Source: an uncultured Muribaculaceae bacterium
Lineage (GTDB): Bacteria > Bacillota_I > Bacilli_A > RF39 > UBA660
Direction: 5' to 3'
Length of the DNA stretch: 61,250 nt
NCBI GenBank assembly: GCA_964481005.1
Contig: CAYZRY010000003.1
Span: forward strand, 1 to 61,250
The notes beneath the pieces are model-generated. The model had not been told where the DNA came from, did not search any database, and worked only from the letters and a program-made list of their open reading frames with translations. Below are positions 8,971-29,885 of this stretch, one piece after another. Position 1 is the stretch's first letter, and every line of letters starts with the position of its first letter. The position numbers were made by a program, and so were the translations under genes.

Positions 8971-9963
8971 TTACGCTTCATTTGTTAATTGGAGATTGAA
9001 TATTGCGTTTCCACCTGATGCTGAGTTTTCACAGTCGACGTCTTGTCCTTCAATCCACATGTAAATTCTAATCTTAGAAATACCTTGTTGTAATGAGAAG
9101 ACTTGTGTCTTAGCTGAGAAACCAACTACAGTACTGTAATCTGGTGTAACTGGATTAACATATGCTGTTGTTCCAACTGCATCTCCGACTTTTAGGTTAA
9201 CTGTGTCAGCAAATTCAGTTTTAACTCCTGAATAAGCAAGTGGTGATGCATTCCCTGTTTCAGTAACTGTTAGTCCATATGTATCACGTGCATGAGCAAC
9301 TCCTGCTGCTGTATGAACGTCATAGTTTGGCTCCCAAACATTAACTTGTGCTGCAACTCCAGCGTTAAGTCCTTGAATTGTTGCAACTCCACTACCGATT
9401 GCAGTATTACCTAAGTGAACAAAAGCCACTCTAGCTGCATTTTTGATACCAGTATCGATTGAATCTGGGGTTGTTATTTGTGAGTTTGGTGTTAGATATA
9501 GCTGTGATGCTGCATCTGCTCTAAAGAATAGATCAAAAGCGACGAAGTCTCCAGCTATTCCTTCTACTTCTGTACTCTTAGTCGAAGATAGAATATAATC
9601 TCCGGTTACGTTTGATGTAACTGTTCCTAGATACATTTCCATCTTACCTGAAGTATCCACTGTCTTAGCCGTAGAAACCGGTCTTAAGGTAGGTGGAATC
9701 TGGTTGACACTAGAAGTGTATGTAGTTCCATGAACTGCTGTTATATCAGCAATACCAACAACTGATTTCCAGTTAGTACCGTCAGCTGATATCTGAATAC
9801 CTCCTTGTGCCTCTACATTAACTTGGATTGGTGATACTGTTACAACTTTATTGGCCGTGAACCACGCGAAAGTGGTCATACCTAAGGCACCTAATGTTGC
9901 AAACATCAGCAATAACAAGCCTAAAATACGTCTTCTTCTGTTCTTTTTACTCTTTGTACTCAT
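8971..9963 (-). CDS. SipW-class signal-peptide protein; candidate major fibre/pilin subunit (TasA/CalY-like)
   Basis: KKNRRRR + hydrophobic stretch + TTFA|WFTAN (SipW-cognate signal peptide pattern); Thr/Ala/Gly/Val-rich beta composition; C-terminal WIEGQDVDC; has its own promoter and terminator. Confidence 0.8.
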   Translation of the reverse strand: MSTKSKKNRRRRILGLLLLMFATLGALGMTTFAWFTANKVVTVSPIQVNVEAQGGIQISADGTNWKSVVGIADITAVHGTTYTSSVNQIPPTLRPVSTAKTVDTSGKMEMYLGTVTSNVTGDYILSSTKSTEVEGIAGDFVAFDLFFRADAASQLYLTPNSQITTPDSIDTGIKNAARVAFVHLGNTAIGSGVATIQGLNAGVAAQVNVWEPNYDVHTAAGVAHARDTYGLTVTETGNASPLAYSGVKTEFADTVNLKVGDAVGTTAYVNPVTPDYSTVVGFSAKTQVFSLQQGISKIRIYMWIEGQDVDCENSASGGNAIFNLQLTNEA

Positions 9964-9986
9964 TTTATTTTCTCCTATCTAAAATA

Positions 9987-10015
9987 ATATTACCAAATAA
10001 CTGTTTATCTTTCAA
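9987..10015 (-). promoter_or_regulatory. Internal sigma-A type promoter for 8971..9963
   Basis: Minus strand: TTGAAA, 17-nt spacer ending in TGG, TAATAT; then an AGGAG RBS. Confidence 0.6.
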
Positions 10016-10049
10016 TCTTTTTACTCACTTTTTACAGAAAAACTTTACA

Positions 10050-10640
10050 TTAATTAATTGTCTGTCTAGAGTCAATAATTATAAATATACTCTCTATAAT
10101 ATTTTGATATTTATAATTCTTATATATTTCATCAAAATATACTAGTAATGTATATGAATTAGTTTCGTTGTAGCGATAATCGAAAAACTTTTTCGGAGCC
10201 TTTAGCTCTCTAAAGTATGTTCCGTGAGTATCGGTTACAACTTCATTTGAATAAATTATATTTTGGGCCGTCGAACTATTGTAATCTTCGTTGACATACA
10301 GTTCATAGCGCAGTTCTAAATTGGTCGTAGCTTTGACCATCAAGTCATATTCGAGCGATACTTCGGCTCTTTTACCATCCTTATTATTAGAAATAGTAAA
10401 ATTGTAAATATATGGTTGACTCCGCGGGACAATATCAGGCAGTCTGACATCTAAATACTGATACGATGTATCTAGGACATAGTAAGCAACACTAGTATTT
10501 AGATTAGAGTCCGCTGATGACTCATATTTCGACAAGCTCATTGGTACAATTACCAGAAGCATTAGCAAGACGATGAAGAGAACAATGACTGTCGATAAAT
10601 TGTTTTTACTTTTTTCTTTTTTTACTACTCTTGTCTTCAT
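10050..10640 (-). CDS. SipW-class signal-peptide protein (TasA/camelysin-like minor subunit)
   Basis: Start moved to MKTRVVKK (GAGGG RBS); TM segment then MSLS|KYESS; DIVPRSQPYIYNFTISN; ends DSRQTIN. Confidence 0.72.
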   Translation of the reverse strand: MKTRVVKKEKSKNNLSTVIVLFIVLLMLLVIVPMSLSKYESSADSNLNTSVAYYVLDTSYQYLDVRLPDIVPRSQPYIYNFTISNNKDGKRAEVSLEYDLMVKATTNLELRYELYVNEDYNSSTAQNIIYSNEVVTDTHGTYFRELKAPKKFFDYRYNETNSYTLLVYFDEIYKNYKYQNIIESIFIIIDSRQTIN

Positions 10641-11193
10641 CTTTTCCCTCAATGATAGAATCCCTAGTAATTCTAAAATCTCTATATTTATAATACTGAC
10701 TCTTAGTCCAGTCTTTAAAGCTATCATTAAATAAAAGTAAAGTAATAATGAGAAGTACAAATACTTGTGGTGTCAGTAAAACTTTTTTCCAAATACCAAG
10801 TTTTTTAAACTGTTTGACAACCTTTCCAACGACGACATCTTTTCTGACTGGTTCATCACCGATGTTGTTGGCATCTCCCTTGGCAATATAAAGATTTTCT
10901 CTGACGGCTGTAACACGGTGAGTGATAAAGACATTGCCCTTTTTATAGGTAATTATCTCTCCGACTTTGGCCTGATTACCTATTTTGACAATTATCACAT
11001 CATCTGTTTCAATCGTCGGAGCCATACTGTTTGTTACAACGACAAAGAAAGTATAACCAAAGATATTAGTATGATCTTTCTTCAATAATTTTAACTGAAC
11101 AAAATTAGTTAAAACAATAAAGGAAACAAACACAATTAAAACAATAAGTATATACTTAACTATTGCAATAATTGTATTGACTGTTTCCTTCAT
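10606..11193 (-). CDS. sipW: Signal peptidase I, SipW/S26B (ER-type), catalytic residues present
   Basis: N-terminal TM; VTNSMAPTI (Ser), ITHRV (His), KGDANNIGD (Asp), VVGKV; C-terminal TM. Confidence 0.9.
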   Translation of the reverse strand: MKETVNTIIAIVKYILIVLIVFVSFIVLTNFVQLKLLKKDHTNIFGYTFFVVVTNSMAPTIETDDVIIVKIGNQAKVGEIITYKKGNVFITHRVTAVRENLYIAKGDANNIGDEPVRKDVVVGKVVKQFKKLGIWKKVLLTPQVFVLLIITLLLFNDSFKDWTKSQYYKYRDFRITRDSIIEGKDEDKSSKKRKK

Positions 11194-11199
11194 ACTAAC

Positions 11200-11781
11200 C
11201 TACCCCACGTATTGACTTAGTTTAACGCTAATTGGAACGTCTAGGAAGGGACTTTCCATCCCGACAAACTTCGAATCATTGACACTGTTGTTATCATCAT
11301 TTTCCCAAACGAAGTCAACTCTTATCTTTTCTTGTTTAGCAGCTAGAACATCTGCTAATAATATGATTCCTTTATATGAACCATCAGGTTCAGGACTAAT
11401 CACTGTACCTGCTTCATTTTTAACACTACTTATATATATTTTATCATTATTTAAATTGGCAAAATCCATCGTAACTTGATACTCTAGTGAAACTTCTGTT
11501 CCACTGGGATCAATAATTATTTCAAAATATGCCGAAGAACCTGGCGCAGCTTTACCTGGCAAGGTTGTATCGTTATTAATCCAATTTACTGTTGGAACTA
11601 AAAATGAATGGTTAGCACCTGTAACTTCACTTGCATTTATTTTAATTTGCCACTTGGCTAAATCACTTATCGCTGGCGAAGTAATATTACTTTCAAAAAG
11701 TCCAAAAGTATTTACATAGGCAAATATTTGGAGTAATAACAAAAGAAAAAAACTTGTTACAAGCAGTTTTCTTCTCGTCAT
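11200..11781 (-). CDS. SipW-class signal-peptide protein (TasA/camelysin-like)
   Basis: RRK + TM + NTFG|LFESN; AKWQIKIN; APGSSAYFEIIID; WENDDNNSVNDS; paralogous to 29295..29885. Confidence 0.78.
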   Translation of the reverse strand: MTRRKLLVTSFFLLLLLQIFAYVNTFGLFESNITSPAISDLAKWQIKINASEVTGANHSFLVPTVNWINNDTTLPGKAAPGSSAYFEIIIDPSGTEVSLEYQVTMDFANLNNDKIYISSVKNEAGTVISPEPDGSYKGIILLADVLAAKQEKIRVDFVWENDDNNSVNDSKFVGMESPFLDVPISVKLSQYVG

Positions 11782-11783
11782 GA

Positions 11784-12356
11784 TTATTTCTTTGCCCTTT
11801 TAAGTTCTTGTAATAGTAGATATAGTTGATACAAGAATAGCACTAGAATTGGCAAGATTACTGCAAATAGGAATACCCATTTAGATGATAACAATCCTAT
11901 GACCGCACCAATTGCTGGATAAACTTTAACATCATCAGCTCTACCAATTACATTTTCTTGTGCTAGTAGATAATCCATCGATTGATCTCCAGCTTTTTCA
12001 CTTTTAGATCTAACTGGCATAATGAATGTATTATCACCATTTGGATTACTATTAACCATCTTAACTTTACTGTAGTAAACTACATCTTTTTGATCTTTAG
12101 TACCTGTGTAATAGAAAAATATAGCATCATTAGTTCTAATTTCTTTATTAGCCGTCTTATTAACTACTACTAGATCTCCCTTTTTAAAATCTTCGACACC
12201 TAATTTACCGTTCATAATAAGCACTGTTTTATTACCAAACTCTGCTACATTATACTGATTGTAATTAAGTAGATAGACCGTAAGTAGTACATCTATTAGT
12301 ACGACTAAAGTAACTACTATCCATAATATATATTTTCCGATTTTTTTCATAGACAC
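11784..12356 (-). CDS. SipW-like pseudo-peptidase (catalytic Ser/His absent)
   Basis: SipW topology (N-terminal TM, KKGDLVVV, ENVIG, YPAIGAVI + C-terminal TM) but no SGSM and no THR motif. Confidence 0.7.
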   Translation of the reverse strand: MSMKKIGKYILWIVVTLVVLIDVLLTVYLLNYNQYNVAEFGNKTVLIMNGKLGVEDFKKGDLVVVNKTANKEIRTNDAIFFYYTGTKDQKDVVYYSKVKMVNSNPNGDNTFIMPVRSKSEKAGDQSMDYLLAQENVIGRADDVKVYPAIGAVIGLLSSKWVFLFAVILPILVLFLYQLYLLLQELKRAKK

Positions 12357-12367
12357 CTCACTATATG

Positions 12368-12376
12368 ATTATATCA
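12368..12376 (-). promoter_or_regulatory. Extended -10 element (internal promoter) upstream of 11784..12356
   Basis: Minus-strand TGATATAAT followed by a GAGGTG RBS. Confidence 0.55.
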
Positions 12377-12389
12377 TAACTTTTTTTAT

Positions 12390-13904
12390 TTATTCAACTT
12401 TATTTAATACGTTAATTAACTTTATATATGCATCTATTTGATTGATATCAAAATCATCAATGTTTTTTAAATCATAATAAGTACATAGTTTTTCAGTTTT
12501 AACAATTAAGTCTGGTAATGTATCGGCATTTAATTTAATTGATTCTAGTTTTAAGTTATCTAGTTTATATTTATCTAGAATGATTCTAGATATATCATGT
12601 TCTTTTAAAACTTCGAGGTTATTGACTAGATTGACATATGGGTTTAGATAAAGATTTTTTAATCTTTCTAAATCGTTAGTCTTTTGAATCTCCCCTTCTT
12701 TATCACGGAACTCTTTAGATATTTTTAGGTAGTATCCGTAATATGAAGATAGGAATAAGATTAGATCTAAGATTTTAGATTCAGTATTGATGTTATCAAC
12801 AAGTGCTTCTTTATAGTAGAGCTCTTCATGTTCTTCGAAGAGATTACTTATTTTAGCAATTAGTTCATCAGTATTGTTTTTCTTTTTCTTAAAACGTTGT
12901 TGGAGTTTCTTTTCAACAGCAAATATCTCTTTTATTTTCTTAGAACTCTCAGTCTTTGGTTTACCAAATAAACCACGAGATTTTTTAGCTGTATTACCAT
13001 CAGTTTTAATCAAAGCACTGACCTTGTCGATAACTTCTTTAAATTCTAAGTAACTAGCATATTCTTTGAGAATATCTCTGAAACTGTTAATTGTTCTTCC
13101 GAAATCATTGACGTCTCCGCGAATAAGTTCATTAGCCAGTTTATCGATATTAGCTGGCAGATAATCTTTGATATTTAATGTTCCATCGGTAAATTTAGCG
13201 ACAAACAATTTCTTGTTACTGTTTTCCGAAGCATTGTTTTGAGTGACCCCTGCTTGATACTCTTTGATAACCTGAGTATGAGACTTATCTATCTCTTTTT
13301 GTAAGTGTTTGACATAATTATCAAAAGTCTTTTGGTGACGATAGTATAAAGTCTTAAAGTTCAGTTTAATATCTCTGATAATATTTGGATTTTTCCAGTA
13401 ATATTCTTCAAAATATGGTTTTAATGTTTCGGTTGTATCTTCGGAGTTGATAGCTGAAAAGACTGCCTGCATGTAGAGATTTTGATATTCGTTGTAGAAA
13501 AAATCATTGCTACTTAATTTAACTCCGGCATGAGTATAGATATTGATCAAAGCGATAATACATTCATTAAATCTTTCAAAATTAGAACGGTAGAACTTAT
13601 CTAAGTGATGAAATATCTCATCGAGACCTAACTTTTCATATGCAGTGTTAACAGGATCTGTCACTTTGATAGCTTCCTCTAAATCTTCGATGCTAACTAT
13701 TTCAAGTGGTTCGACATTAATTGAGTTTTCAAAGTTAATACGACGCTGTTTCATCTCTTCGATAAGAGCTAATTTTTCCTGATTATATTCAGCAAAAATC
13801 TTATTAGCTTCGCTAATATAATGTCTCTTGTCATCATCAGTTACTTTAGGTAAAGCTGAAAGTATTTCTTCAGAAAGGTTTATTTTTTCAATGATATCAG
13901 TCAT
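12390..13904 (-). CDS. Hypothetical cytoplasmic, largely helical protein (504 aa) within the fibre locus
   Basis: Long ORF, GAGGAGG RBS, no TM or signal peptide; no family recognised. Confidence 0.8.
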   Translation of the reverse strand: MTDIIEKINLSEEILSALPKVTDDDKRHYISEANKIFAEYNQEKLALIEEMKQRRINFENSINVEPLEIVSIEDLEEAIKVTDPVNTAYEKLGLDEIFHHLDKFYRSNFERFNECIIALINIYTHAGVKLSSNDFFYNEYQNLYMQAVFSAINSEDTTETLKPYFEEYYWKNPNIIRDIKLNFKTLYYRHQKTFDNYVKHLQKEIDKSHTQVIKEYQAGVTQNNASENSNKKLFVAKFTDGTLNIKDYLPANIDKLANELIRGDVNDFGRTINSFRDILKEYASYLEFKEVIDKVSALIKTDGNTAKKSRGLFGKPKTESSKKIKEIFAVEKKLQQRFKKKKNNTDELIAKISNLFEEHEELYYKEALVDNINTESKILDLILFLSSYYGYYLKISKEFRDKEGEIQKTNDLERLKNLYLNPYVNLVNNLEVLKEHDISRIILDKYKLDNLKLESIKLNADTLPDLIVKTEKLCTYYDLKNIDDFDINQIDAYIKLINVLNKVE

Positions 13905-14016
13905 TTAAACCCTCCTCAAGTGTCTTGATTTCCTGCTCTAGTTTTTTGAGAAATTCTTCAATTTTGCTATACCTATTAACCAGTTCATCGGTTGTTAAAT
14001 TAATTATCTCTTCCAC
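13897..14016 (-). CDS. Unannotated 39-aa coiled-coil protein (MEEIINLTTDELVNRYSKIEEFLKKLEQEIKTLEEGLND)
   Basis: Manual translation. AAGGAG RBS and GTG start directly after the giant-gene stop; TGA overlaps the next ATG (ATGACTGA). Confidence 0.75.
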   Translation of the reverse strand: MEEIINLTTDELVNRYSKIEEFLKKLEQEIKTLEEGLND

Positions 14017-14026: not shown

Positions 14027-17000
14027 TTATCTTATTACAATATAATTATACACTTCTCCGATAAAATTGCTACCATCATATAGAGAAAATGTTACACGGT
14101 ATGTTCCTGTTACGAGATTTTCTTTTAAATATAAGTAGTATGTTTGCTTGTCAAATAGTGTATTAGATAGTAAATATTCATACTTTCCAGCTGTACCTAT
14201 CGGTGCATATGAGTGAGTTATATAGTTTGAAATATCTACTGCTTGATAGTTTAGTGAATGTACTTGGTCATACATTCTTCGTTTTAATGACAGTCTCAAA
14301 TTAGGACTTGCTAGTCCTGAAGCATAGTCGATGTTAAAGATCATGACATTGCTATCATTCATTGTTTTACCAGTAGTACTGTCGATGGTCATCTGTCTAT
14401 CAGTAAGAGTTGATTTAAGACCATAGATATTATTTAAAATATTTAGAGTTACTTCTTTGGTATCTGATGAAAGTAGTCCATAGTAAATACCATCAGCTGA
14501 ACCAAAAGACTCTACTTTAATCTTGTATGTTCCCGACTGCAGATTAGAATTCAATGTATCTAGCACTATTTTTGAAGATACATTGGCGATAGTCGGAGCA
14601 ATGTTGATACGGGTTGTTCCATCCATACGCGGATAGTAAGTTATACCACCAACAGTGAAAGTTACTCCCAGTAAACTCGCTCCATTTAACTGATTGTTAT
14701 TTGAATCATACATAGTTAACTTGATACCTAACTTTTTATCGTAGTATGTCGTATCGTGAATTGTTACACCATTTACAGTTGGCTGAATAAAGTTAGTTGT
14801 AACATTTAGATTAGTTGCTTCCTTAATATATATATTGTTCTTACTTAATGCTGCGGTTATTTCAATTAGAGCATCTGCTTCATCATAAATGTTATAAGTC
14901 AAATTACTGTAATGGATACCGAGAACTCCAATAATCGTTTGGTTTTCATTATTACGTAGTTCAATTAGAAGCGTCTGATCAAGTTTGTTTTCGGTTATTT
15001 CACTTTCTCCGTAATCGACAATAAAGACAAACTCTTCACTGACAATTCGCAGATCTGATTTGTAATAGACACTGTTTTGATATACATCATCATAGTTATT
15101 ATTAGTCGAAGTTGAACCCATTTTGATAAATCTAGATAGTGGATAAGAAGCTTCATTGTGCTGAGCAAACTCTGTTAATGAAGCAGCGTAATCAGCAGCA
15201 TTTACTACGTAGTAATAATATGTTGGGGTTGCCGTCGTAAAGTCCATCATGGTAATTTTGGTATTTTCTGGAAGGGCAAATGATGATACGAGATTACGAT
15301 GGTATCCTGTTTTATAAATGTTATCGGTATTATCGATAAACAGTGAATAGTATGTACTTAGTTTTGAATTGTCCGTAATATCTGTTTTAGTCGATACAAA
15401 GACTTCGTGGACTTCTCCAGAAGTCATCGCACCCTCATACTCGTTAGATGAGTATAGAGCTCTCGATAAATTGATATTGATATTGACACGTGTTACTTCG
15501 TTATTTAAATCATCGATTGGTTTAATAGCCATCAAGTGGACTACTACTGTTCCGATGTTACCGGCTGTCTCTAAGTTTTTAGAGTGATATAAGTTAAACA
15601 GTAAACTCGGAACGGTGGTTGAGTTTTCACTTTGATAATCTAGCGTTCCTTGTGGAAGCGGCTGACTAGTTAGAAACTGTGTTTCACCGAAAGTAATCCA
15701 TCCAGTACGACTACTCTTCATTGTAAGTCCCATGACGCTGTCGGCTGTTCCATCAGCTGATATACGTGGAATATCATTGCGATCGATAAGTTGGAAACCA
15801 CCAGGAAGACCAGCATAATTGACACCAATTACTGAGAAAACAGTATTTGGATCAGGTGAGTTGATAAGTGGCAACTCGTAAGTTCCTAGGGTTGAGAAAC
15901 GTGAGGCAATCAAGTTGACATCGTAAGATGAAACGGCTTCACCAATAACCCACATATAATAGTTAGATGCTTCTGGAGTTGGTTCGATATATTTTACTTC
16001 GACAATTCCTTCGCTTTCTTCATTTTGATAGTTACTGTAAAAACCATCGACAGTAATATCATGATTTAATACGTGACTTCCAAGTACATAAGAACCACTT
16101 GAGAAAGCATAGAACTCACCAGGAGCAACTGTATCACCTTGATTGTAACTACGATTGTAGAAAGCTTCGACAGTATTTCCGTCTCCACTTCTCATATACA
16201 TCCCAAAGAAAGTCATTCCTGAAACAACTCCGTATGAAGTAACTGCTTCATTAGTGGCTATATTGATATTTACGCCCTCTTTAGCATAGAGTCTATTATT
16301 GACATTTTTACTTACTGTTCCATTATCGATAGTAACTGCTGCTTTAACATTATTAGTTGTATCAACGACACTGGTAAACTTTTCAACAAGGTTTGTTCCT
16401 GTTTCTAAATAAATAGTTGAATTATTACTTAGTTTTAGTTCTTTAATACGGGATAAACTAAATAGTACATTCGAATATTCATTAGTTCTATCGGTTGCTC
16501 CGAACAGTTCTAAATACGAATTGTCGAGTACGACTAAATTAGCTCTTTGAATCGAAGTATTACGTTTATGACTAGAAGCTGTTCCGTAATTATTGATAAA
16601 TATTCTACTTACTCCGGTTGTTGATGATGCGTTACCACTTCCAAAGATAGATCCACCAATTGAGATATCATTAGTTGTCGTATTATCGATATTGATATCT
16701 ATTCCCTTAGTTACACTGATAAATGAGAAGTCGTAAGTTTCACTACCACTAGCATTGGCTTCTCCTCCGCCAAAGACTGTTCCACCAATTGTGATTTTGG
16801 CGTTTTGTAAACTGGCGATATTTCCGATATTTACTTCGGTTGTTCCATAAACGACCGAGGTATTGGCACCGCCATATACATTTTTACCAATAGTTGCTCC
16901 GGCAATATTGACGATACTCGATGAATTGTTCTGTTCCGAGCTTCCTGTTTCTGCAGCATTTCCTCCACCGAAAACATGATCACCAATATTAGTTGTTCCT

Positions 17001-21322: not shown

Positions 21323-21332
21323 TATTTCCTTT

Positions 21333-23008: not shown

Positions 23009-23057
23009 ACATTATCCTACTTTCTACTCTATTTAAGATTATCATATTCTCTTGATT

Positions 23058-23078
23058 ATTTCAATTTTAAATTGAAAT
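23058..23078. promoter_or_regulatory. Palindromic candidate operator in the divergent promoter region
   Basis: ATTTCAATTT-T-AAATTGAAAT between divergent genes; TGATATACT extended -10 on the + strand at about 23102-23110. Confidence 0.45.
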
Positions 23079-23125
23079 TTATTGTTCTAAATTAGCCTTT
23101 ATGATATACTTTTTATGGTGAGAAT

Positions 23126-23641
23126 ATGAAAAATAGGATAAGTAAAATTTTAGTTCTAATATATCTTTTTATTGTGGCTCTTTTATCAATCTATCTTTTT
23201 ATGTATGATTCAAGGTCTTTAAACAGTAGTCGCAAACTCCTTGTCTTTGCTGCAGACAAGTTAGATAGCTTCAGTAATGGGTCACTTGTTTTTGTTAAAA
23301 AGAATCCTAAAATAAAACTTGATGAAGATGTTTTATTCTACAACTTTTATACTAATAAGATTAAAGTTCTCGAAGGAAGAGTTGTCGCTAGTGAAAAGTT
23401 AAACGAAAACGAAACTACTTATGAACTTAAAAATGGAAGATATGTTTCTGATGATTATGTCATAGCGATGAGTAATAAAGCTACAGCTATACCGCTCATC
23501 GGTTACCCGTTTTCGCTTTTAACTACTTCGGCTGGTTACTTAATCTTTGCCTTACTGCCAACCGCAGGTTTATTTATCTATCAACTTAACAATTTCCTAA
23601 GAATTATCAACGAGGATGACAAACGTGCTAAAAAAGATTAG
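23126..23641 (+). CDS. SipW-like pseudo-peptidase (catalytic Ser/His absent)
   Basis: N-terminal TM, NGSLVFVK, DDYVIA, IPLIGYPFSLL + C-terminal TM (SipW layout); no SM or THR motif. Confidence 0.65.
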   Translation: MKNRISKILVLIYLFIVALLSIYLFMYDSRSLNSSRKLLVFAADKLDSFSNGSLVFVKKNPKIKLDEDVLFYNFYTNKIKVLEGRVVASEKLNENETTYELKNGRYVSDDYVIAMSNKATAIPLIGYPFSLLTTSAGYLIFALLPTAGLFIYQLNNFLRIINEDDKRAKKD

Positions 23642-24533
23642 AAATAATAAAATTTTATTACTAATCATTTTAGTTCTTTTACTTGTTGCAACTACTAGTT
23701 TGGGGCGTTTTATCTATCTAGAAATTAAGAAAAACTTTTTCTTAACCAAAGACTTTTACTTTGAAAGTGATAAATTACGTGAAAAACAGTTTCTTTATAA
23801 AGTAAATAACTACAACGGAGTCGATAATTATGATATAGTTGTTAATATGAACAGTATAAAGAATAATATGCTTCGTTCTAGTTCGGACATTGCTTATAAC
23901 ATCACAACTAACTGTTCAGCCAAAGCTAACTGTAGTCTAAGTAAAAACAGTGGAACAATCTATGCGGCCAGTGGAACTGATTACTTCCTAGTATCGCTAA
24001 GCCCTAGTACAAACCTTGTCGAAGGTGATGAAATACACGTCGAAGTAATTGCTACATCAACTGATCCATACATCAAAACACTTAGTGCCACCTTCATGTT
24101 AGTCGTTGGTAACTACGGTCTTTCCTATGAGATATACGATGTCGTAAATAGACCATATCTCGAATTTAAAATGACTAATACCCTAGATTACTACACCGTC
24201 AAAGAAGCTTTTGATACAAGATCTGTCGGTGATAAAATCGACATTGACACATATCTTGCGCTCAGTCCTGAAAACAAAAACAAATGTGCATCAGCAATCG
24301 TCAATTTAAGTTTTGATCCAAACATCATATTGTTTGATAACGCCAGTCTAGTCAAAGGATTAATAAACACCACCACTATTCCACTCAATGGTTTTAACTA
24401 CATCAACAACGTAACCTTCAAAATAGATGCCATATCGAGTATGATAGTTAGATTTTATAAAAAAGATAAATCATTAAATTATACCTATCCAATCGTCAAT
24501 CAAAATCCAATTTTAACTGTCACATATCAATAA
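23616..24533 (+). CDS. SipW-class signal-peptide protein (two beta-rich domains likely)
   Basis: KKIR + TM + TSLG|RFIY, FYFESD; Cys pair (NCSAKANCS); ends LTVTYQ. Confidence 0.7.
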   Translation: MTNVLKKIRNNKILLLIILVLLLVATTSLGRFIYLEIKKNFFLTKDFYFESDKLREKQFLYKVNNYNGVDNYDIVVNMNSIKNNMLRSSSDIAYNITTNCSAKANCSLSKNSGTIYAASGTDYFLVSLSPSTNLVEGDEIHVEVIATSTDPYIKTLSATFMLVVGNYGLSYEIYDVVNRPYLEFKMTNTLDYYTVKEAFDTRSVGDKIDIDTYLALSPENKNKCASAIVNLSFDPNIILFDNASLVKGLINTTTIPLNGFNYINNVTFKIDAISSMIVRFYKKDKSLNYTYPIVNQNPILTVTYQ

Positions 24534-24547: not shown

Positions 24548-25504
24548 ATGAATAATATTATCAGTGAATATATAAACTTTTCAAAACAGTGTATAAATCG
24601 TTATTTCAAAAAAATCTTAGCTAATCAATATCAACAAGAAATAGTTAACAAATTAGTTAATAATTACATTGATTCTAGATATTATTCAAGTAGTGATAAT
24701 TTATCTTTACTGATTAGAAATAATTTAAATAAAGCTAGTAGTGAGTTTACTGGAGCCGATAAAGAGTTAGCTGACAATGTCGTTAAGACATTTAACTTCA
24801 TTCTCTATTTTGATAATGTCATCGAATGTGAATCGACAGTCAAAGTAATCGAAGCTCTAGCTAATTTTCGTGAAAATGTTTTAAAGATAGCTAAAGAATC
24901 TTCTTTTGAAGAAGAATTTTTAGAAATGCTTAAAACAGATTTAATTAAGAAGAAAGAATACATCGATTCATTCGATGCTAAAAAATTTGATTTTGAATGT
25001 AGTTTGACTACTCATGATCGCCTATACGATGTAACAGTCAATCAGAATTTGAAGTTCCCTAATGTCTACAACTCAGCAGTTATCGACAAGGTCTTCAAGT
25101 CAAAAGATTTAGCTGACAAAAGAACGGTCCTCGAGTACAATTTTACATCACTACAAGTTTTAAAAGACTTGATCAAGGGTGTCACTTACGAATACTTAGT
25201 TACCTACCCTAGTGGTATTAGTACCAAAGAGGGAGAATTAGAAAAGTTATTTGCTATTTTAGATAATGAAGTTCTCATTGAAAGAGTTAGCATTAAAATA
25301 AATTTTGATGACTTTATTAATGAAAAAGAAGTGATTTATGAATACATGCGCAAGGGTTATAAATTTGCTGTCATACTAAAGAATAACTTTGTCGAAGATG
25401 AAACTAACACTAGACTTCTAACTGTCTTTAAATATATTATTATCAACCGTCGAAACAGTTTTATTGAAGTTAATAATTATAAAAACACCATCAAGGTAGA
25501 ATAG
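24548..25504 (+). CDS. Hypothetical cytoplasmic protein with a degenerate EAL-like C-terminal region
   Basis: GGGAGG RBS; ERVSIKINFDDF...EYMRKGYKFAVIL...LLTVFKYIII echoes the EAL-domain strand/helix order. Confidence 0.55.
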   Translation: MNNIISEYINFSKQCINRYFKKILANQYQQEIVNKLVNNYIDSRYYSSSDNLSLLIRNNLNKASSEFTGADKELADNVVKTFNFILYFDNVIECESTVKVIEALANFRENVLKIAKESSFEEEFLEMLKTDLIKKKEYIDSFDAKKFDFECSLTTHDRLYDVTVNQNLKFPNVYNSAVIDKVFKSKDLADKRTVLEYNFTSLQVLKDLIKGVTYEYLVTYPSGISTKEGELEKLFAILDNEVLIERVSIKINFDDFINEKEVIYEYMRKGYKFAVILKNNFVEDETNTRLLTVFKYIIINRRNSFIEVNNYKNTIKVE

Positions 25505-25510
25505 AGGCTT

Positions 25511-27034
25511 ATGGAAACATTTTTTAGATTTTCTTATCAGATACTCAGTGTCTTCTTAGCAGGACTAATTCACGTCGTCAAAGCTATTTTCGAAGCTTTT
25601 CCGATGAGTTTTAATCTCTCTGATTACATTGCTATTATCAATCAGTACAGCAAAGACTTTTCCGGTTTGGAATGGGTCTTTGTCGTTTTAGTCATCCTTG
25701 TTATGATTGCCATAGTCGTCGGAGTATTCGCCTTAATTTACCTACTGTTTAGAAAGTATGTCCGCATTCGAAAGAGTCTCGTTGAACAAGAGAGCCTGCT
25801 TGAAGAAGTAGCGGATCTAAATAAAAAGGTCCTCACTCTTTCAAAAGAAAAAGATGAGATCCTTGCGATGAAAGTTTCACAGCTTGGACTAAAACCTGGT
25901 GAATCAGCAACTATCGATCCAGAAGAAAATAAAGATGAAAACTTAGTTGCCGGTGATATCCGCTTTTCTAAACTTCATCAGATTGATATAGATCACACTA
26001 ACTACAAACCAGTTAACTACGGAAACAGTTTTACTTTACCAGAACTAGTCGATATGTTTAGAAACTTTGCCGCTGGTAAACTTGGACTATATTACAAGGA
26101 AGACTTAATTAGATTGTTTATCTCTGGTCTTGCATCAACTAAACTTATTATCTTACAGGGTATTTCTGGAACTGGTAAAACTTCCCTAGCCTATGCTTGG
26201 GGAAAATTCTTAAAGAACGATTCCTGTGTTGCTTCAGTTCAACCGTCATGGAGAGATCGTACCGAGCTATTTGGTTACTTCAATGAGTTTACTAAAAAGT
26301 TTAATGAAACTGATGTCTTACGTGAAATCTACCTAGCTGGATATGATGACGATATCCACACCATCATCCTCGATGAGATGAACATCGCCCGTGTCGAGTA
26401 CTACTTCGCCGAGATGTTATCGATTCTGGAGATGCCTGATAAAAATGAATGGATTGTCGAGCTAGTATCTAGTGCTTGGGATAGTGATCCAAAGAAAATT
26501 CAACGTGGAAAACTTAAGATTGCTCCGAATGCTTGGTATATCGGAACTATCAATAACGATGACTCGACCTTCATGGTTACCGATAAAGTATACGACCGTG
26601 CTATGCCTATCGATATCAATGAAAAAGGTCAACTATTTACACCGAAAGATATACCTGCCCAAGATATAAACTATTCTTATCTCGATAAATTATTTGTCGA
26701 AGCTATGCAAACATACAGTATCTCAAAAGAGAACTTAGATAAAATTGAAGCGATGGACGATTATGTTATTCAGCATTTCCGTATCGCCTTCGGTAACCGT
26801 ATCGTTAGCCACATGCAAAAATTTGTACCGGTCTACATGGCCAGTGGTGGTAATGAAATTGATGCTATCGATTACTTCGTTGCCAGAAAGATTTTAAGAA
26901 AATTTGAACAGTTAAATATCTCGTACATCAGAGATGAAGTTGATGGATATATCGACTTCTTAAATGCTACTTTTGGACAAGATAAAATGAAAGAGTGTAT
27001 CGAATACTTAGTTAGACTCAAGAAGAGCATATAG
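25511..27034 (+). CDS. Membrane-anchored McrB-family AAA+ NTPase (N-terminal TM + coiled coil)
   Basis: TM WVFVVLVILVMIAIVVGVFALIYLLF; coiled coil; Walker A GISGTGKT; VQPSWRDRTELFGYFN; Walker B IILDEMNIARVEYYFAE; McrB signature GTINNDDST; DKVYDRA. Confidence 0.88.
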   Translation: METFFRFSYQILSVFLAGLIHVVKAIFEAFPMSFNLSDYIAIINQYSKDFSGLEWVFVVLVILVMIAIVVGVFALIYLLFRKYVRIRKSLVEQESLLEEVADLNKKVLTLSKEKDEILAMKVSQLGLKPGESATIDPEENKDENLVAGDIRFSKLHQIDIDHTNYKPVNYGNSFTLPELVDMFRNFAAGKLGLYYKEDLIRLFISGLASTKLIILQGISGTGKTSLAYAWGKFLKNDSCVASVQPSWRDRTELFGYFNEFTKKFNETDVLREIYLAGYDDDIHTIILDEMNIARVEYYFAEMLSILEMPDKNEWIVELVSSAWDSDPKKIQRGKLKIAPNAWYIGTINNDDSTFMVTDKVYDRAMPIDINEKGQLFTPKDIPAQDINYSYLDKLFVEAMQTYSISKENLDKIEAMDDYVIQHFRIAFGNRIVSHMQKFVPVYMASGGNEIDAIDYFVARKILRKFEQLNISYIRDEVDGYIDFLNATFGQDKMKECIEYLVRLKKSI

Positions 27035-27041
27035 GTGACTT

Positions 27042-28175
27042 ATGAGCGAATTAAAAGTACTTGAACTCTACGACAATTCGAGCGAACGTAAAAGACAAGA
27101 TTTTGTTAAAAAACATAAATCTAAACTTCGCATTGACCACAACTTCGAAAAAAACATAGTCGATGATTCTTGGCTTGTCGTAATCGAGGAAAATATTCGC
27201 TATTTGGATAATATACTTCGTAATCCAAATCGTTTTATAGTCAATGATGAAGAAGTCGTCAAAGTAGAACTAGCTCGAAGAATTACTGTCGAGAGTATAA
27301 AACATTTATCTAAAAATACTAACTTCATTCAAGAGTTCGATCAAGAAAGTGGCGATGTTAAACCGTCTAAAATATTAAATATCAACAAAGAAGAAAGTTT
27401 TAATACTTACGAAAACAGAGTTATTTATACTCTAATTAAAAACATGGTCATGTACATAGATATTAAGAAGAAAAGTTTAAATCTAGGTATGTCTACTAAA
27501 AATGATAAGTTACTTTCTTATGAAGGTGAATCAAATATTGGTGGTGAGAAAGTTAACATCAGTTTAACCTTAAATAGTAAACTAGATGATCGTAACAGCA
27601 TTGCAGAATTTGAGCAACGCATTAAGAAAGTAGAATTTCAAATCAAAGACTTGATGAACTCAGAAGTCTACAAAAGTATTGAAAGAGCTCGTGTAGCTTT
27701 GATTACTCCACCGATTAAAAAGACTAACTTGATACTTAAAAACGTCAACTTCCAGCATGCTATGACGCTGTGGAACTTCCTTCAAGAAGAAATAGAAGAT
27801 AAATCGGAAGTTAAAGTTGGAAATAATATCGTCGAAGAAGATGAAAAAATGCAAAAACTATTAGATGAGACTTTCCTACTTAACTACTTTATCTTAAACT
27901 CATTTGATAATGATGATGCCGATGAAGAAAAAATTAAAGTTAATCGTGAAATAATACTTAATAACTTAATACAACAATTAGTTATTACCAATGACGATAT
28001 GTCGATTGATCAAATTGGAGATATGCTTAACAAACAGTTCCAACTAGTTAAGAAACAAACACTAGCTACGGAAGAAGAAATTAAAGGTCTTTTTGGAGCA
28101 GCTATGGATGAGTATCTAAAACAGATCGAAGATGTTAAAATAGAGGATGAAAATGAAGAAATTACAGGAAAATAA
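27042..28175 (+). CDS. DUF2357/McrC-like partner protein lacking the PD-(D/E)XK nuclease domain
   Basis: ILRNPNRFI...EVVKVELARRI...KPSKIL...FNTYENRVI...KTNLILKNVNF (DUF2357 pattern), followed by an acidic helical tail with no PD..D/ExK. Confidence 0.75.
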   Translation: MSELKVLELYDNSSERKRQDFVKKHKSKLRIDHNFEKNIVDDSWLVVIEENIRYLDNILRNPNRFIVNDEEVVKVELARRITVESIKHLSKNTNFIQEFDQESGDVKPSKILNINKEESFNTYENRVIYTLIKNMVMYIDIKKKSLNLGMSTKNDKLLSYEGESNIGGEKVNISLTLNSKLDDRNSIAEFEQRIKKVEFQIKDLMNSEVYKSIERARVALITPPIKKTNLILKNVNFQHAMTLWNFLQEEIEDKSEVKVGNNIVEEDEKMQKLLDETFLLNYFILNSFDNDDADEEKIKVNREIILNNLIQQLVITNDDMSIDQIGDMLNKQFQLVKKQTLATEEEIKGLFGAAMDEYLKQIEDVKIEDENEEITGK

Positions 28176-28725
28176 AATAATTAAAATACTATGGGGACTT
28201 ATCAAAGCAATCTTTGGAATAATTATTGCTCTAGTACTGATAATTATAATTACTCAAAGAGTATTCAATAATAAAGTTACATTTATGGGTTATCGAATAT
28301 TTACTGTTGCCAGTGGCAGCATGGAACCCAAATATAAAATACTAGATATGTTACTTGTAAAAGAAATGGAACCAGATAAAATAGTTGTCGGAGATGATCT
28401 AGTATATCGTGGAACCATCGGTACATACGAAGGTAAAGTAATTACCCACCGTGTCATTAAGATACAAGAAAATGAAGGTAAAAAAGTTTTTCATACCCAA
28501 GGTATTTTAGAAAACTCAATGCTTGATCCACTAGTAAGTGAGGATCAAATATTTGGTAAAGTACTATATAAATTACAATTTTTTAGTTTTGTAAATAGAC
28601 TTATCAGTAAACCTATTGGATTTATGATACTTATTGTTCTTCCAATAGCAGTATTAATTCTACTAGAAATAATTGATATTAAAGATAAAAGAGAAAGTTT
28701 GGAGAATGACGAAGACGAAGAATAG
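28147..28725 (+). CDS. sipW: Signal peptidase I, SipW/S26B (Ser/His present)
   Basis: N-terminal TM; VASGSMEP (Ser), VITHRVI (His), HTQG...LDP, IFGKV; C-terminal TM. Confidence 0.88.
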   Translation: MKMKKLQENKIIKILWGLIKAIFGIIIALVLIIIITQRVFNNKVTFMGYRIFTVASGSMEPKYKILDMLLVKEMEPDKIVVGDDLVYRGTIGTYEGKVITHRVIKIQENEGKKVFHTQGILENSMLDPLVSEDQIFGKVLYKLQFFSFVNRLISKPIGFMILIVLPIAVLILLEIIDIKDKRESLENDEDEE

Positions 28726-29302
28726 TACAATTCAAAGCTTAAAAAGAAGTCTCAGATTTAAAGTAATTATCATGCTGGGAATTCTTTTAGTGTTTAACAC
28801 TTTTGCTTGGTTTATCTATTCTTCGACTGTTTCTACTAACATAACAGCTTCGGTCAGATCTTGGCGTATTTCTTTTGAAGCCGAAGATCAAGTTGTACAG
28901 TATGTTAATTTCGATGTCAGTGACCTATTCCCAGGAATGACTAATTATCACAATTCAATTCGTATTATGAACTATGGTGAAGTACAGGCTAGTGTCACTT
29001 ATGAAATCGAAGAACTGCGCATTCTAAATGATATCTATACTAAACAGACTCATACTAGTGCACAGATGCAAGATATACTAAATAACAATCCCTTTACAAC
29101 GACCTTTGGTCTAACTAAAACAATTCTAGAACCTAAGACTGATTATACTGACTTTACTTTAGATATTGTTTGGCCATACGAAAATGGTAATGATGAAGCA
29201 GATACCCTATGGGGACATAAAGCTTACCAATATAAAGAACAGTACCCCGGTGTAAAATTAATCTACATCAAAGTACTGCTCACGGCAACTCAAATTAATT
29301 AG
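28706..29302 (+). CDS. SipW-class signal-peptide protein (TasA/camelysin-like)
   Basis: Start moved to MTKTK (GGAG RBS); TM + NTFA|WFIYS; DLFPG...IMNYGEV; WPYENGNDEADTLWG; ends TATQIN. Confidence 0.8.
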   Translation: MTKTKNSTIQSLKRSLRFKVIIMLGILLVFNTFAWFIYSSTVSTNITASVRSWRISFEAEDQVVQYVNFDVSDLFPGMTNYHNSIRIMNYGEVQASVTYEIEELRILNDIYTKQTHTSAQMQDILNNNPFTTTFGLTKTILEPKTDYTDFTLDIVWPYENGNDEADTLWGHKAYQYKEQYPGVKLIYIKVLLTATQIN

Positions 29303-29885
29303 CTAGCTGTTTAAAGTTTATCAAAACATTTATAACAGCTTTTTTGTTGGTCAAAGATGCATCTGTATCGGCAGCATTGTCCATTGTCTCAGTTACTGAA
29401 TCTTCCCAAGTCGTATATATTCTTATCGTTTTAGTACGCTGCGTTTCGGTAAGAAGAACTGTCCCGGTAAGATTACTGATTGCTCCGTTTACCGGGACAA
29501 TGGATCCACCGTTTTCAGAATAACCAGTTACTTTTAAATCACTTACTGCCTCGGCCTGAGGAACAGTAGTGACAATATTATATTCAAATGATGTGTCAAC
29601 TTTAGAATAGTCGAGGACCAGATCAAAGTATGCTACTGACCTGGGTGCCATCACTCCTTCTTTGACATGATCACTGCTCATAATGGTCGGAGTTATAGTG
29701 TTTGTCAAATAAGAGCTTTGCACAACATCTTGGCCATTGACAACAATCTGCCATCTAGCTATCGACATTGAAGCACTACCAAAAGCAGAAGTATTGTACT
29801 TACTGTACGTCTCCTGCACCATGCTTATCAAAGCAAAAAGAGATATGAACGCTAATGCTAATTTAATCTTTTGAAACTTTGGCAT
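29295..29885 (-). CDS. SipW-class signal-peptide protein (TasA/camelysin-like), convergent on the right arm
   Basis: TM + ETYS|KYNTS; ARWQIVVN; MAPRSVAYFDLVLD; WEDSV...NAADT; ends NFKQLAN; GAGGGAAGGGG RBS. Confidence 0.8.
   Translation of the reverse strand: MPKFQKIKLALAFISLFALISMVQETYSKYNTSAFGSASMSIARWQIVVNGQDVVQSSYLTNTITPTIMSSDHVKEGVMAPRSVAYFDLVLDYSKVDTSFEYNIVTTVPQAEAVSDLKVTGYSENGGSIVPVNGAISNLTGTVLLTETQRTKTIRIYTTWEDSVTETMDNAADTDASLTNKKAVINVLINFKQLAN

What the first reader, a model, noticed from the sequence alone, without database searches (positions are those of the whole stretch)
8971..29885. Candidate new system: 21-kb SipW/TasA-type fibre locus with its own membrane-bound McrB-like motor
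Seen: two divergent arms from a shared promoter region (23009-23125) plus one convergent gene. Contents: seven proteins with a common signal-peptide motif [TS]-[FYL]-[AGS]|[WKLR]-[FY] (TTFA|WF, MSLS|KY, NTFG|LF, TTYA|WF, TSLG|RF, NTFA|WF, ETYS|KY), an eighth related TM-anchored protein, four SipW-like proteins, a ~2430-aa repeat adhesin, two cytoplasmic unknowns, a 39-aa peptide, and a TM-anchored McrB-type NTPase with a DUF2357 partner. Genes abut or overlap. Known: SipW (S26B) processes TasA/TapA/CalY, which polymerise into biofilm fibres in Bacillus; those operons are about three genes and have no NTPase. Inference: a sortase-independent, non-type-IV pilus/fibre with major and minor subunits, a tip adhesin, dedicated peptidases/chaperones and an NTP-driven assembly or remodelling module. 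I am not aware of this combination having been described.
Basis: partly seen in the sequence, partly recalled or inferred. Interest (0 to 1): 0.92.

Follow-up and report, generated by a model that had tools for sequence, protein, structure and literature searches.

The report
SipW-linked surface-fibre locus with McrBC-derived GTPase
This 21-kb cluster from an uncultured low-GC gut or bioreactor bacterium pairs SipW-type signal peptidases and a family of secreted beta-sandwich proteins with a membrane-anchored GTPase derived from a restriction enzyme; the kind of system was named "CoCoPALM" in 2024 but has never been studied experimentally.

Summary
The cleavage-type motif occurs in 7 of 17 locus ORFs and in 0 of 39 ORFs outside the locus. 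Two SipW-type peptidases keep the catalytic Ser and His; two paralogues have lost both. The TM-anchored AAA+ protein has McrB Walker A and B motifs and an invariant NxD(D/E) signature. Its partner carries DUF2357 and no detectable nuclease.

The linkage is not chance. In 82 related loci (Bacilli and Clostridia MAGs), the McrC-like gene sits next to the GTPase in 80 and a SipW gene in 79. Homologues of g1/g9 and of the anchored paralogue g10 occur in about 50.

Two parts of the interpretation fail:
- **"TasA-type"** is not supported. Pfam, profile-versus-PDB, hhalign against TasA, and Foldseek with two confident AlphaFold2 models all found no TasA relationship. The subunits are beta-sandwiches with no significant PDB neighbour.
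- **"Not described"** is wrong. Bell et al. (eLife 2024) named this association CoCoPALM, in three sentences, and deferred the analysis.

The motor role of the GTPase is inference only. Verdict: a real, well-conserved member of a named but uncharacterised class. Interest is moderately high.

The parts
8971..9963 (-). g1: 330-aa secreted subunit (TTFA|WF). Candidate major subunit; paralogue of g9.
   Evidence: ORF. TIGR04088 E 0.014 for g1 itself, and 33 of 52 family members hit it. AF2 pLDDT 89.8, beta-rich, no PDB neighbour. The only gene of the locus recovered in an RNA contig.
10050..10640 (-). g2: about 196-aa secreted minor subunit (MSLS|KY). The likely ATG start is at 10640, inside the longer TTG ORF.
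   Evidence: hhalign to the g4 and g18 families 97%, and to g12 94%.
10606..11193 (-). g3: active SipW-type (S26B) signal peptidase I.
   Evidence: TIGR02228 E 1.8e-19, above cutoff. SMAP Ser and THRV His are present.
11200..11781 (-). g4: 193-aa secreted minor subunit (NTFG|LF); paralogue of g18.
   Evidence: hhalign g4 to g18 99.9%. HMM cross-hit E 1e-23 to 1e-27.
11784..12356 (-). g5: catalytically dead SipW paralogue with N- and C-terminal TM segments.
   Evidence: NF046067 E 5e-6. Hit by the SipW HMM at E 1.5e-13. Lacks the Ser and His; only 1-2 of 37 orthologues match the motifs.
12390..13904 (-). g6: 504-aa cytoplasmic protein of unknown fold, usually found with the giant protein.
   Evidence: No TM segment. 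Conserved in 19 loci. No credible family hit.
13897..14016 (-). g7: 39-aa acidic helical peptide that overlaps the g6 start.
   Evidence: A comparable 32-59 aa ORF with an EL(L/I)xxYxxIxxFL-type pattern precedes g6 in about 17 of 19 loci.
14027..21346 (-). g8: 2439-aa N-terminally anchored surface protein with a beta-helix-like repeat core.
   Evidence: One TM at residues 16-47. About 27 repeats of about 25 residues with [YF]GG, residues about 700-1530. No Pfam or NCBIfam hit. Homologues in 31 loci. Unrelated giant proteins of 2391-2570 aa occupy the same position in Clostridia.
21333..22298 (-). g9: 321-aa secreted subunit (TTYA|WF); paralogue of g1 (39% identity).
22298..23008 (-). g10: 236-aa TM-anchored paralogue of g1/g9 without the cleavage motif. 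Candidate membrane-anchored base subunit.
   Evidence: TM at residues 17-54. Shares the W-x-EG-D-D-x-DC C-terminal motif. HMM E 1e-10 to 1e-11. Present in 50 of 82 loci, including Clostridia.
23009..23125 (.). 117-bp divergent intergenic region between the two arms.
   Evidence: Promoter-like matches are not above shuffles and lie only on the minus strand.
23126..23641 (+). g11: second catalytically dead SipW paralogue.
   Evidence: NF046067 E 9e-4. Hits the g5 family HMM at E 1e-28. No Ser or His.
23616..24533 (+). g12: 305-aa secreted subunit (TSLG|RF) with conserved cysteines.
   Evidence: hhalign to the g2 family 94%.
24548..25504 (+). g13: 318-aa cytoplasmic protein, always directly upstream of the GTPase in the Bacilli-type loci.
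   Evidence: Found in 40 of 82 loci. No family hit. The EAL relationship was tested and not shown.
25511..27034 (+). g14: membrane-anchored McrB-like AAA+ GTPase of the NxD branch.
   Evidence: TM segments at residues 9-32 and 47-86. Walker A, Walker B and N348-x-D350-D351 are invariant. PDB McrB E 0.007. 8066 50%-identity clusters match.
27042..28175 (+). g15: McrC-like partner with a DUF2357 N-domain and a helical acidic tail; no nuclease.
   Evidence: DUF2357 E 4.4e-10. Invariant residues stop at W244. The family profile finds only coiled-coil noise in the PDB.
28147..28725 (+). g16: active SipW-type signal peptidase I, in the core position after the McrC-like gene.
   Evidence: TIGR02228 E 2.5e-22. 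Ser and His are present. Found in 79 of 82 loci.
28706..29302 (+). g17: 198-aa secreted minor subunit (NTFA|WF).
   Evidence: FAWF is invariant in the family. AF2 pLDDT 81.8, beta-sandwich, no significant PDB match.
29295..29885 (-). g18: 196-aa secreted minor subunit (ETYS|KY). Convergent gene; paralogue of g4.
   Evidence: Conserved in this convergent position in 44 loci.

Best explanation
[quoted passage not shown] It is a chromosomal, sortase-independent system for building a cell-surface protein structure, most likely a filament.

**Shown**
- One co-inherited gene set encodes two active SipW-type signal peptidases and two dead paralogues.
- It also encodes seven secreted proteins sharing a -3/-1 cleavage motif, one uncleaved TM-anchored paralogue (g10) and a giant beta-helix-like surface protein.
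- The cytoplasmic side has a GTPase tethered to the membrane by N-terminal TM segments, paired with a nuclease-less McrC-like protein.

**Inferred mechanism**
1. Subunits are exported by Sec and stay held in the membrane by their signal anchors.
2. g3 and g16 cut after [TS]-[FYL]-[AGS].
3. The released subunits polymerise on the anchored g10 base. Their conserved mature N-terminus, poorly packed in the monomer models, may act as a donor strand. g1/g9 form the shaft, and the small subunits and g8 are accessory or adhesive parts.
4. The McrB-like ring, plugged and stimulated by the DUF2357 domain of g15 as in McrBC, uses GTP hydrolysis to drive or gate assembly across the membrane. The coupling would run through its own TM/coiled-coil stalk and possibly the dead SipW paralogues acting as non-cleaving subunit holders.
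For: **Class membership**
- Invariant NxD(D/E) motif, Walker A and Walker B.
- TM segments ahead of the GTPase domain.
- Adjacent DUF2357 protein with no conserved residues past W244.
- SipW genes on both arms.
- The class definition is in PMC11090510.

**One system**
- Of 82 loci, 80 have the McrC-like gene, 79 SipW, 50-53 g1/g9, 50 g10 and 49 g17.
- Gene order is kept from Bacilli to Ruminococcus and Acutalibacteraceae MAGs.
- A relative about 30% identical still has SipW-McrB-McrC in a row.
- The flanking window genes are not co-conserved.

**Secreted structural family**
- Motif statistics; profile links among the families.
- TIGR04088 hits 33 of 52 g1-family members.
- Both AF2 models are beta-sandwiches preceded by a TM helix.
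- The first 20 mature residues are more conserved than the rest (0.78 against 0.69; 0.68 against 0.60), yet have the lowest pLDDT.

**Not a defence island**
- Housekeeping neighbours.
- The GTPase is about 70% identical across the 120 listed homologues, out of 8000 scored hits.
- At least 598 species-level genomes carry it.
Against: - No filament has been seen for any member. Everything here comes from uncultured MAGs.
- The subunits show no detectable relationship to TasA or any other solved filament subunit. Polymerisation is therefore argued from context only.
- No precedent exists for an AAA+ GTPase of the McrB type acting in surface-structure assembly, and no physical link between g14 and the extracellular parts was tested.
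- FtsB homology of the g14 N-terminus was not reproduced (FtsL_Actino E 0.0056; DivIC in 1 of 27 members).
- Some TM-type relatives show no SipW within 10 kb (L084).
- Expression evidence is one 270-nt RNA contig.
Confidence: 0.6

Rival explanations
1. The cluster builds a surface coat, or is a dedicated export and quality-control system, rather than a filament. The SipW-processed beta-sandwich proteins and the giant protein would form a cell-envelope layer or a set of individually displayed adhesins. The GTPase pair would regulate or proof-read export, for example by clearing uncleaved signal anchors from the membrane.
For: - No fold or sequence link to any known filament subunit.
- Eight different paralogous subunits is many for a simple fibre.
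- The giant protein has its own N-terminal anchor.
- Many hosts are reduced 'Mollicutes/Tenericutes'-labelled Bacilli, where an unusual envelope is plausible.
Against: - A strictly conserved anchored paralogue (g10) next to cleaved paralogues (g1/g9) fits a base-plus-shaft arrangement.
- The conserved but unpacked mature N-terminus resembles a donor strand.
- Bell et al. also read the context as pilus assembly.
Confidence: 0.22
2. It is a membrane-associated anti-phage or conflict system descended from McrBC/CoCoNuT. The secreted proteins would be effectors or decoys.
For: - The GTPase belongs to the NxD branch.
- Its non-TM relatives sit next to UPF1-like helicases, the CoCoNuT context.
- The McrBC ancestry is clear.
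Against: - No nuclease domain in g15 or anywhere in the locus.
- No DNA-binding N-domain on g14.
- Core-genome context and high conservation across hundreds of species.
- Twelve co-conserved envelope proteins.
- PADLOC was not searched, so this rests on the other evidence.
Confidence: 0.07
3. It is an ordinary tapA-sipW-tasA-type biofilm matrix operon that merely lies beside an unrelated McrBC restriction pair.
For: SipW-type peptidases and a TIGR04088-like signal peptide on g1/g9.
Against: - The McrB/McrC/SipW adjacency is kept in 79-80 of 82 loci across two classes of Bacillota.
- No TasA or TapA homology.
- The McrBC pair lacks both its nuclease and its DNA-binding domain.
Confidence: 0.03

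Closest known systems
[quoted passage not shown]
   Same: NxD-motif McrB-like GTPase with an N-terminal TM and helical segment, an adjacent DUF2357 McrC homologue without an active nuclease, and associated signal-peptidase-family genes. The proposed role is also pilus assembly.
   Different: The published description is three sentences with no gene-by-gene anatomy. The following are not in that text:
- the eight-member subunit family and the anchored base paralogue;
- the two dead SipW paralogues;
- the giant beta-helix-like protein;
- the conserved 39-aa peptide;
- the EAL gene in the Clostridial versions.

In this window the McrC coiled coil is short (377 aa, against 700-750 aa in Clostridia).
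Bacillus subtilis tapA-sipW-tasA, with B. cereus sipW-calY and Clostridium perfringens sipW-bsaA
   Same: A dedicated S26B SipW peptidase is encoded with its substrates. The signal-peptide cleavage region is similar (TasA ...GGTWA|AFND against TTFA|WF). Assembly is sortase-independent. The subunit families end in a conserved strand with an invariant Q, as TasA does in ...FEATQ (anecdotal).
   Different: No detectable sequence or fold homology of any subunit to TasA. There are 18 genes instead of about 3, with two extra dead peptidase paralogues and a cytoplasmic GTPase pair. TasA fibres assemble outside the cell without any NTPase.
McrBC type IV restriction system and CoCoNuT systems
   Same: AAA+ GTPase fold with McrB-type Walker motifs, and a partner with the DUF2357 domain that in McrBC inserts into the hexamer and stimulates GTP hydrolysis.
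   Different: NxD rather than NxxD signature. The DNA-binding N-domain is replaced by TM segments. There is no PD-(D/E)xK nuclease, no helicase or HEPN neighbours, and the context is housekeeping.
Type IV pili / type II secretion (functional analogy only)
   Same: A hexameric cytoplasmic NTPase at the membrane, membrane-held subunits with a conserved N-terminal processing motif, a dedicated peptidase, and major plus minor subunits.
   Different: No PilB/PilT-type ATPase, no A24 prepilin peptidase and no class III signal peptide. The cut here lies after the hydrophobic helix, so the helix is removed rather than kept as the filament core.
Archaeal donor-strand filaments (Sulfolobus threads, Pyrobaculum bundling pili AbpA)
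   Same: Beta-sandwich subunits exported with type I signal peptides. The Sulfolobus thread subunit (7pnb) appears at rank 8 in the g1 Foldseek list.
   Different: That match is not significant (E 0.14, probability 0.16). No NTPase is associated with those filaments.

Membership tests
CoCoPALM (Bell et al. 2024) | McrB-like GTPase with the shortened NxD signature, usually followed by D or E | tested here: met
   N348, D350 and S352-T353 are invariant, and position 351 is D or E, in 27 diverse homologues. The window sequence is GTINNDDST at 345.
CoCoPALM (Bell et al. 2024) | GTPase fused N-terminally to an FtsB-like TM plus coiled-coil segment | tested here: inconclusive
   TM segments at residues 9-32 and 47-86, followed by a basic and then helical stretch. 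Homology to FtsB/FtsL is only weak: FtsL_Actino E 0.0056 and DivIC in 1 of 27 members.
CoCoPALM (Bell et al. 2024) | Adjacent McrC homologue (DUF2357), usually with a coiled coil and no active nuclease | tested here: met
   DUF2357 E 4.4e-10. Adjacent in 80 of 82 loci. No conserved residue beyond W244, and only coiled-coil-type matches for the long Clostridial tails.
CoCoPALM (Bell et al. 2024) | Association with signal-peptidase-family genes | tested here: met
   g3 and g16 pass TIGR02228. SipW is found within 10 kb in 79 of 82 loci.
CoCoPALM (Bell et al. 2024) | Placement inside the CoCoPALM clade of the published McrB GTPase tree | not testable with these tools
   The supplementary files held as text contain no CoCoPALM entries.
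TasA/SipW biofilm-fibre operon | S26B SipW-type peptidase with catalytic Ser and His | tested here: met
   g3 and g16 match TIGR02228 and NF046067 and keep the Ser and His. g5 and g11 do not.
TasA/SipW biofilm-fibre operon | Substrate carries the TIGR04088 SipW-dependent signal peptide | tested here: inconclusive
   g1 scores 15.6 bits against a cutoff of 19. 33 of 52 g1-family members hit the model, best E 4.4e-5. The g17 and g18 families give no hit.
TasA/SipW biofilm-fibre operon | Subunit homologous to TasA/camelysin (Peptidase_M73) in sequence or fold | tested here: not met
   No Pfam hit. The family profile finds nothing in the PDB. hhalign against TasA, with the TasA sequence verified against 8AUR, gives at most 4.8%. 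Foldseek for g1 and g17 shows no TasA in the top 50, best E 0.08 and 0.011.
McrBC type IV restriction | McrC PD-(D/E)xK nuclease and McrB N-terminal DNA-binding domain | tested here: not met
   No nuclease family or conserved catalytic residues in g15. The g14 N-terminus is TM segments.
Sortase-dependent Gram-positive pili | LPXTG sorting signals and a sortase gene | tested here: not met
   No LPXTG-type motif in any secreted protein. No Sortase family hit.
Type IV pili | PilB/PilT ATPase, A24 prepilin peptidase and class III signal peptides | tested here: not met
   None of these families was hit in the 18 proteins. The conserved motif lies after the hydrophobic helix, not before it.

The most novel reading that the evidence does not exclude
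The cluster builds a previously unseen class of bacterial surface filament. Its subunits would have folds with no solved relative. Its assembly, unlike every known Gram-positive fibre (sortase pili, TasA, Ena), would be powered or gated from the cytoplasm by a restriction-enzyme GTPase (McrBC) that lost its nuclease and gained a membrane anchor, with dead signal peptidases as the trans-membrane coupling parts.
Probability: 0.3. Interest if true: 0.85.

Novelty: new member of a known kind. Interest (0 to 1): 0.6.

Why it matters
- If the inferred function is right, a defence machine (McrBC) has been turned into part of a cell-surface assembly apparatus. That would be a new way for Bacillota to build appendages, alongside sortase pili, type IV pili and self-assembling TasA or Ena fibres.
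- The system is common. At least 598 species-level genomes carry it, mostly uncultured gut, rumen and digester Bacilli and Oscillospirales-type Clostridia. It may therefore shape adhesion and aggregation in those communities.
- The class has a name but no published anatomy or experiment. The part list worked out here gives concrete, testable handles:
  - a cleaved shaft pair (g1/g9);
  - an anchored base paralogue (g10);
  - five minor subunits;
  - two dead peptidases;
  - a conserved small peptide (g7);
  - an EAL-domain partner in the Clostridial versions.

Tried and rejected
- **TasA homology.** Tested five ways, all negative: Pfam on single proteins and on the g17 family; family profile against PDB sequences; hhalign of all seven subunit families against verified TasA; Foldseek of the g1 and g17 models.
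- **McrC profile against the PDB.** Only coiled-coil noise, and no McrC hit.
- **FtsB-like N-terminus.** Not reproducible with HMMER.
- **g13 as a degenerate EAL domain.** hhalign probability 1.6%; not claimed.
- **Shared promoter.** Consensus scan no better than shuffles.
- **DNA tandem repeats in the giant gene.** None; the repeats are at protein level only.
- **Flanking genes as extra members** (6393-8875 and 30012-31506). No homologues near the GTPase in any other locus.
- **Expression ranking from a metatranscriptome.** Only one 270-nt contig, on g1; too thin to rank genes.
- **Follow-up CoCoPALM paper.** None in the library, and the supplements hold no CoCoPALM text.
- **Long coiled-coil relatives of the GTPase.** Their helicase neighbours mark them as CoCoNuT systems, not this system.

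Full report
**1. What is in the sequence**

The region 8971-29885 holds 18 tightly packed genes. Ten lie on the minus strand (8971-23008). Seven lie on the plus strand (23126-29302), starting 117 bp away. One convergent gene lies at 29295-29885.

The window is from a low-GC (about 33%) member of the Bacillota; it carries a T-box leader. Its nearest relatives are MAGs labelled Mollicutes or Bacilli bacterium. The same DNA is found in bioreactor, wastewater and manure metagenomes.

The locus sits among housekeeping genes: IleRS, TyrRS, SerRS, a thioredoxin-reductase-like gene and a DnaB_2-domain gene. The genes immediately flanking it have no homologues beside the GTPase in any other locus.

**2. 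The observation**

- **Motif.** [TS][FYL][AGS][WKLR][FY] occurs directly after an N-terminal hydrophobic stretch in 7 of the 17 locus ORFs and in none of the 39 other ORFs of at least 100 aa. Seven of the eight occurrences anywhere in 19,380 residues are these sites. It obeys the -3/-1 rule for type I signal peptidases. It is conserved in each orthologue family, for example FAWF is invariant in the g17 family and A-W-F in the g1 family.
- **Peptidases.** g3 and g16 pass the archaeal-type signal peptidase I model TIGR02228 (E 1.8e-19 and 2.5e-22) and resemble SipW. g5 and g11 are clear homologues; SipW-family HMMs hit g5 at E 1.5e-13 and g11 at E 4e-4. They have lost the S-M-x-P serine and the THRV histidine, and so have nearly all their orthologues. 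The correct description is two peptidases plus two pseudo-peptidases.
- **GTPase.** g14 has two hydrophobic segments (residues 9-32 and 47-86), then a basic and then helical linker, then an AAA+ domain with GISGTGKT, ILDEMN and GTINNDDST. It aligns motif for motif with E. coli McrB, although weakly (E 0.007).
- **Partner.** g15 carries DUF2357 (E 4.4e-10).
- **Giant protein.** g8 has one N-terminal TM segment and about 27 repeats of about 25 residues with [YF]GG, typical of a beta-helix.
- **Small peptide.** The 39-aa g7 is real. A similar acidic helical ORF overlaps the start of g6 in about 17 of 19 loci.
- **Promoter.** The 'shared promoter' is only an intergenic gap. Consensus matches do not exceed shuffles.

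**3. Is the combination real?**

- The GTPase family is very large. 8000 near-full-length proteins matched in the first search, and the 120 listed are about 70% identical. 8066 clusters at 50% identity match, 746 of them below E 1e-30. At least 598 species-representative genomes carry it.
- I fetched 82 loci and searched them with all 18 window proteins. The McrC-like gene is present in 80 loci and a SipW gene in 79. Homologues of g1/g9 occur in 50-53, g10 in 50, g17 in 49, g4 in 45, g18 in 44, the giant protein in 31 and g6 in 19.
- Many loci are short contigs, so these counts are lower bounds.
- Gene order is conserved. In Ruminococcus and Acutalibacteraceae MAGs the set shrinks to: EAL protein, g10-like anchor, g1-like subunit, SipW, GTPase, long McrC (700-750 aa), a giant protein of 2391-2570 aa, and a small FAWF subunit.
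- A relative only about 30% identical still has SipW directly upstream of the GTPase-McrC pair.
- Relatives with long coiled coils and no TM segment sit next to UPF1-like helicases, the CoCoNuT context. Two TM-type relatives showed no SipW in the DNA available.

**4. What the subunits are**

Profile comparisons link the secreted proteins into one loose family:

| Pair | hhalign probability | Extent |
|---|---|---|
| g4 / g18 | 99.9% | full length |
| g17 / g4, g17 / g18 | about 95% | most of the length (154 and 174 columns) |
| g17 / g2 | 94% | N-terminal half (92 columns) |
| g4 / g2, g18 / g2 | 97% | 167 and 86 columns |
| g2 / g12 | 94% | 144 columns |
| g1/g9 / g17 | 95% | signal peptide and N-terminal region only |
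| g1/g9 / g10 | 92% | C-terminal region |

For g1/g9 and g10, HMM E is 1e-10 to 1e-11 and includes the core.

None of them is detectably TasA:
- No Peptidase_M73 hit.
- The g17 family profile finds nothing in PDB sequences.
- hhalign against TasA gives at most 4.8%.

AlphaFold2 models are confident: g1 has pLDDT 89.8 and pTM 0.84; g17 has pLDDT 81.8. Both show a TM helix followed by a beta-sandwich. Foldseek against the PDB gives no match better than E 0.08 for g1 and 0.011 for g17. The lists contain only generic sandwiches and jelly rolls, and TasA is not in the top 50.

The TIGR04088 'SipW-dependent signal peptide' model hits 33 of 52 g1-family members. The window's own g1 is below cutoff, and the g17 and g18 families are not hit.

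A point in favour of polymerisation: the first 20 mature residues are the best conserved part of g1 and g17, yet they have the lowest model confidence. That is the behaviour of a donor strand. This is inference, not a test.

**5. The GTPase pair**

In an alignment of 27 homologues down to 29% identity, N348, D350, S352 and T353 are invariant and position 351 is D or E. This is the NxD(D/E) variant that Bell et al. use to define a major non-canonical McrB branch.

g15-family invariants (W44, EE..YEN at 117-125, PPIKKTN..K..LW at 224-244) end at residue 244. Nothing downstream is conserved, and the long Clostridial tails match only coiled-coil proteins. No nuclease was found anywhere in the locus.

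**6. Prior description**

A full-text search found that Bell, Sahakyan, Makarova, Wolf and Koonin (eLife 2024, PMC11090510) already noted 'another large clade' of NxD GTPases. [quoted passage not shown] The authors named them CoCoPALM and deferred them to a later paper.

I found no later paper, and the supplements held as text contain nothing more. The combination is therefore named but essentially undescribed. The present locus meets three of the four testable defining features. The FtsB homology remains inconclusive.

**7. Most likely mechanism**

*Shown:* one co-inherited set contains active SipW peptidases, dead paralogues, cleavable and non-cleavable paralogous beta-sandwich proteins, a giant repeat protein, and a membrane-tethered nuclease-less McrBC pair.

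*Inferred:*
1. Sec exports the subunits, which stay membrane-held by their signal anchors.
2. g3 and g16 cut after the -1 residue.
3. Mature g1/g9 polymerise on the uncleaved g10 base, with the small subunits and g8 as accessory or adhesive parts.
4. The GTPase ring, stimulated by the DUF2357 domain of g15, couples GTP hydrolysis to assembly across the membrane. The coupling could run through its own TM stalk, and perhaps through the dead peptidases acting as subunit holders.

My probabilities:

| Claim | Probability |
|---|---|
| CoCoPALM membership | about 0.85 |
| The product is a surface filament | about 0.55 |
| The GTPase is a true assembly motor or gate | about 0.3-0.35 |

*Rivals:* a surface coat or export quality-control system (0.22), a defence system (0.07), and chance adjacency of a TasA-type operon and McrBC (0.03).

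**8. Verdict**

It is a new member of a named but uncharacterised kind. It offers several new anatomical details and two structural families without solved relatives.

Noticed in passing
L055:5424-6182, L063:6332-7072, L071:7738-8541 (and 17 further Clostridial loci): The Clostridial versions of the cluster carry a true EAL-domain (c-di-GMP phosphodiesterase-type) protein just upstream of the g10-like anchor gene (Pfam EAL E 4e-50). The Bacilli versions have the unrelated-looking g13 before the GTPase instead. hhalign of g13 against EAL is not significant (1.6%).
   Followed up: partly
window 13897-14016: The 39-aa acidic helical peptide is conserved (32-59 aa, EL(L/I)xxYxxIxxFL-type pattern) and overlaps the start of g6 in about 17 of 19 loci. 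This suggests a translationally coupled g7-g6 pair that travels with the giant protein.
   Followed up: partly
window 9681-9950: One metatranscriptome run (X24) holds a 270-nt contig, more than 99% identical, over the 5' end of g1. No other gene of the locus is clearly recovered. This is a thin hint that g1 is the most expressed gene.
   Followed up: partly
window 8971-9963, 21333-22298, 22298-23008 (C-termini): g1, g9 and g10 share a near-invariant C-terminal motif W-(I/L)-EG-(Q/D)-D-(V/P)-D-C. Its acidic cluster and single Cys suggest a metal-binding or cross-linking site.
   Followed up: no
window 28706-29302, 11200-11781, 29295-29885, 10050-10640 (C-termini): The small-subunit families all end in a beta-strand with an invariant Gln (g17 Q196, g4 Q190, g18 Q193, g2 Q193). 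This recalls TasA ...FEATQ, although no homology to TasA could be shown.
   Followed up: partly
window 42205-43266 and 54994-57276; L002 15685-17316 and 20637-21539: GGGtGRT and DUF4272 genes lie near the cluster both in the window and in L002. This indicates a conserved chromosomal neighbourhood rather than a mobile island.
   Followed up: no
window 7469-8875: A 468-aa highly acidic, coiled-coil-rich protein lies directly beside the locus. It has no homologue near the GTPase in other loci, so it is probably not part of the system.
   Followed up: yes
window 48063-48242: A T-box leader (97 bits) lies upstream of the seryl-tRNA synthetase operon region. It is ordinary, but it fixes the phylum as Bacillota.
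   Followed up: no
L088:7166-7927: In a distant TM-type relative (about 30% identical GTPase), an ABC-type ATPase gene follows the McrC-like gene. A second NTPase can therefore be recruited to this kind of cluster.
   Followed up: no
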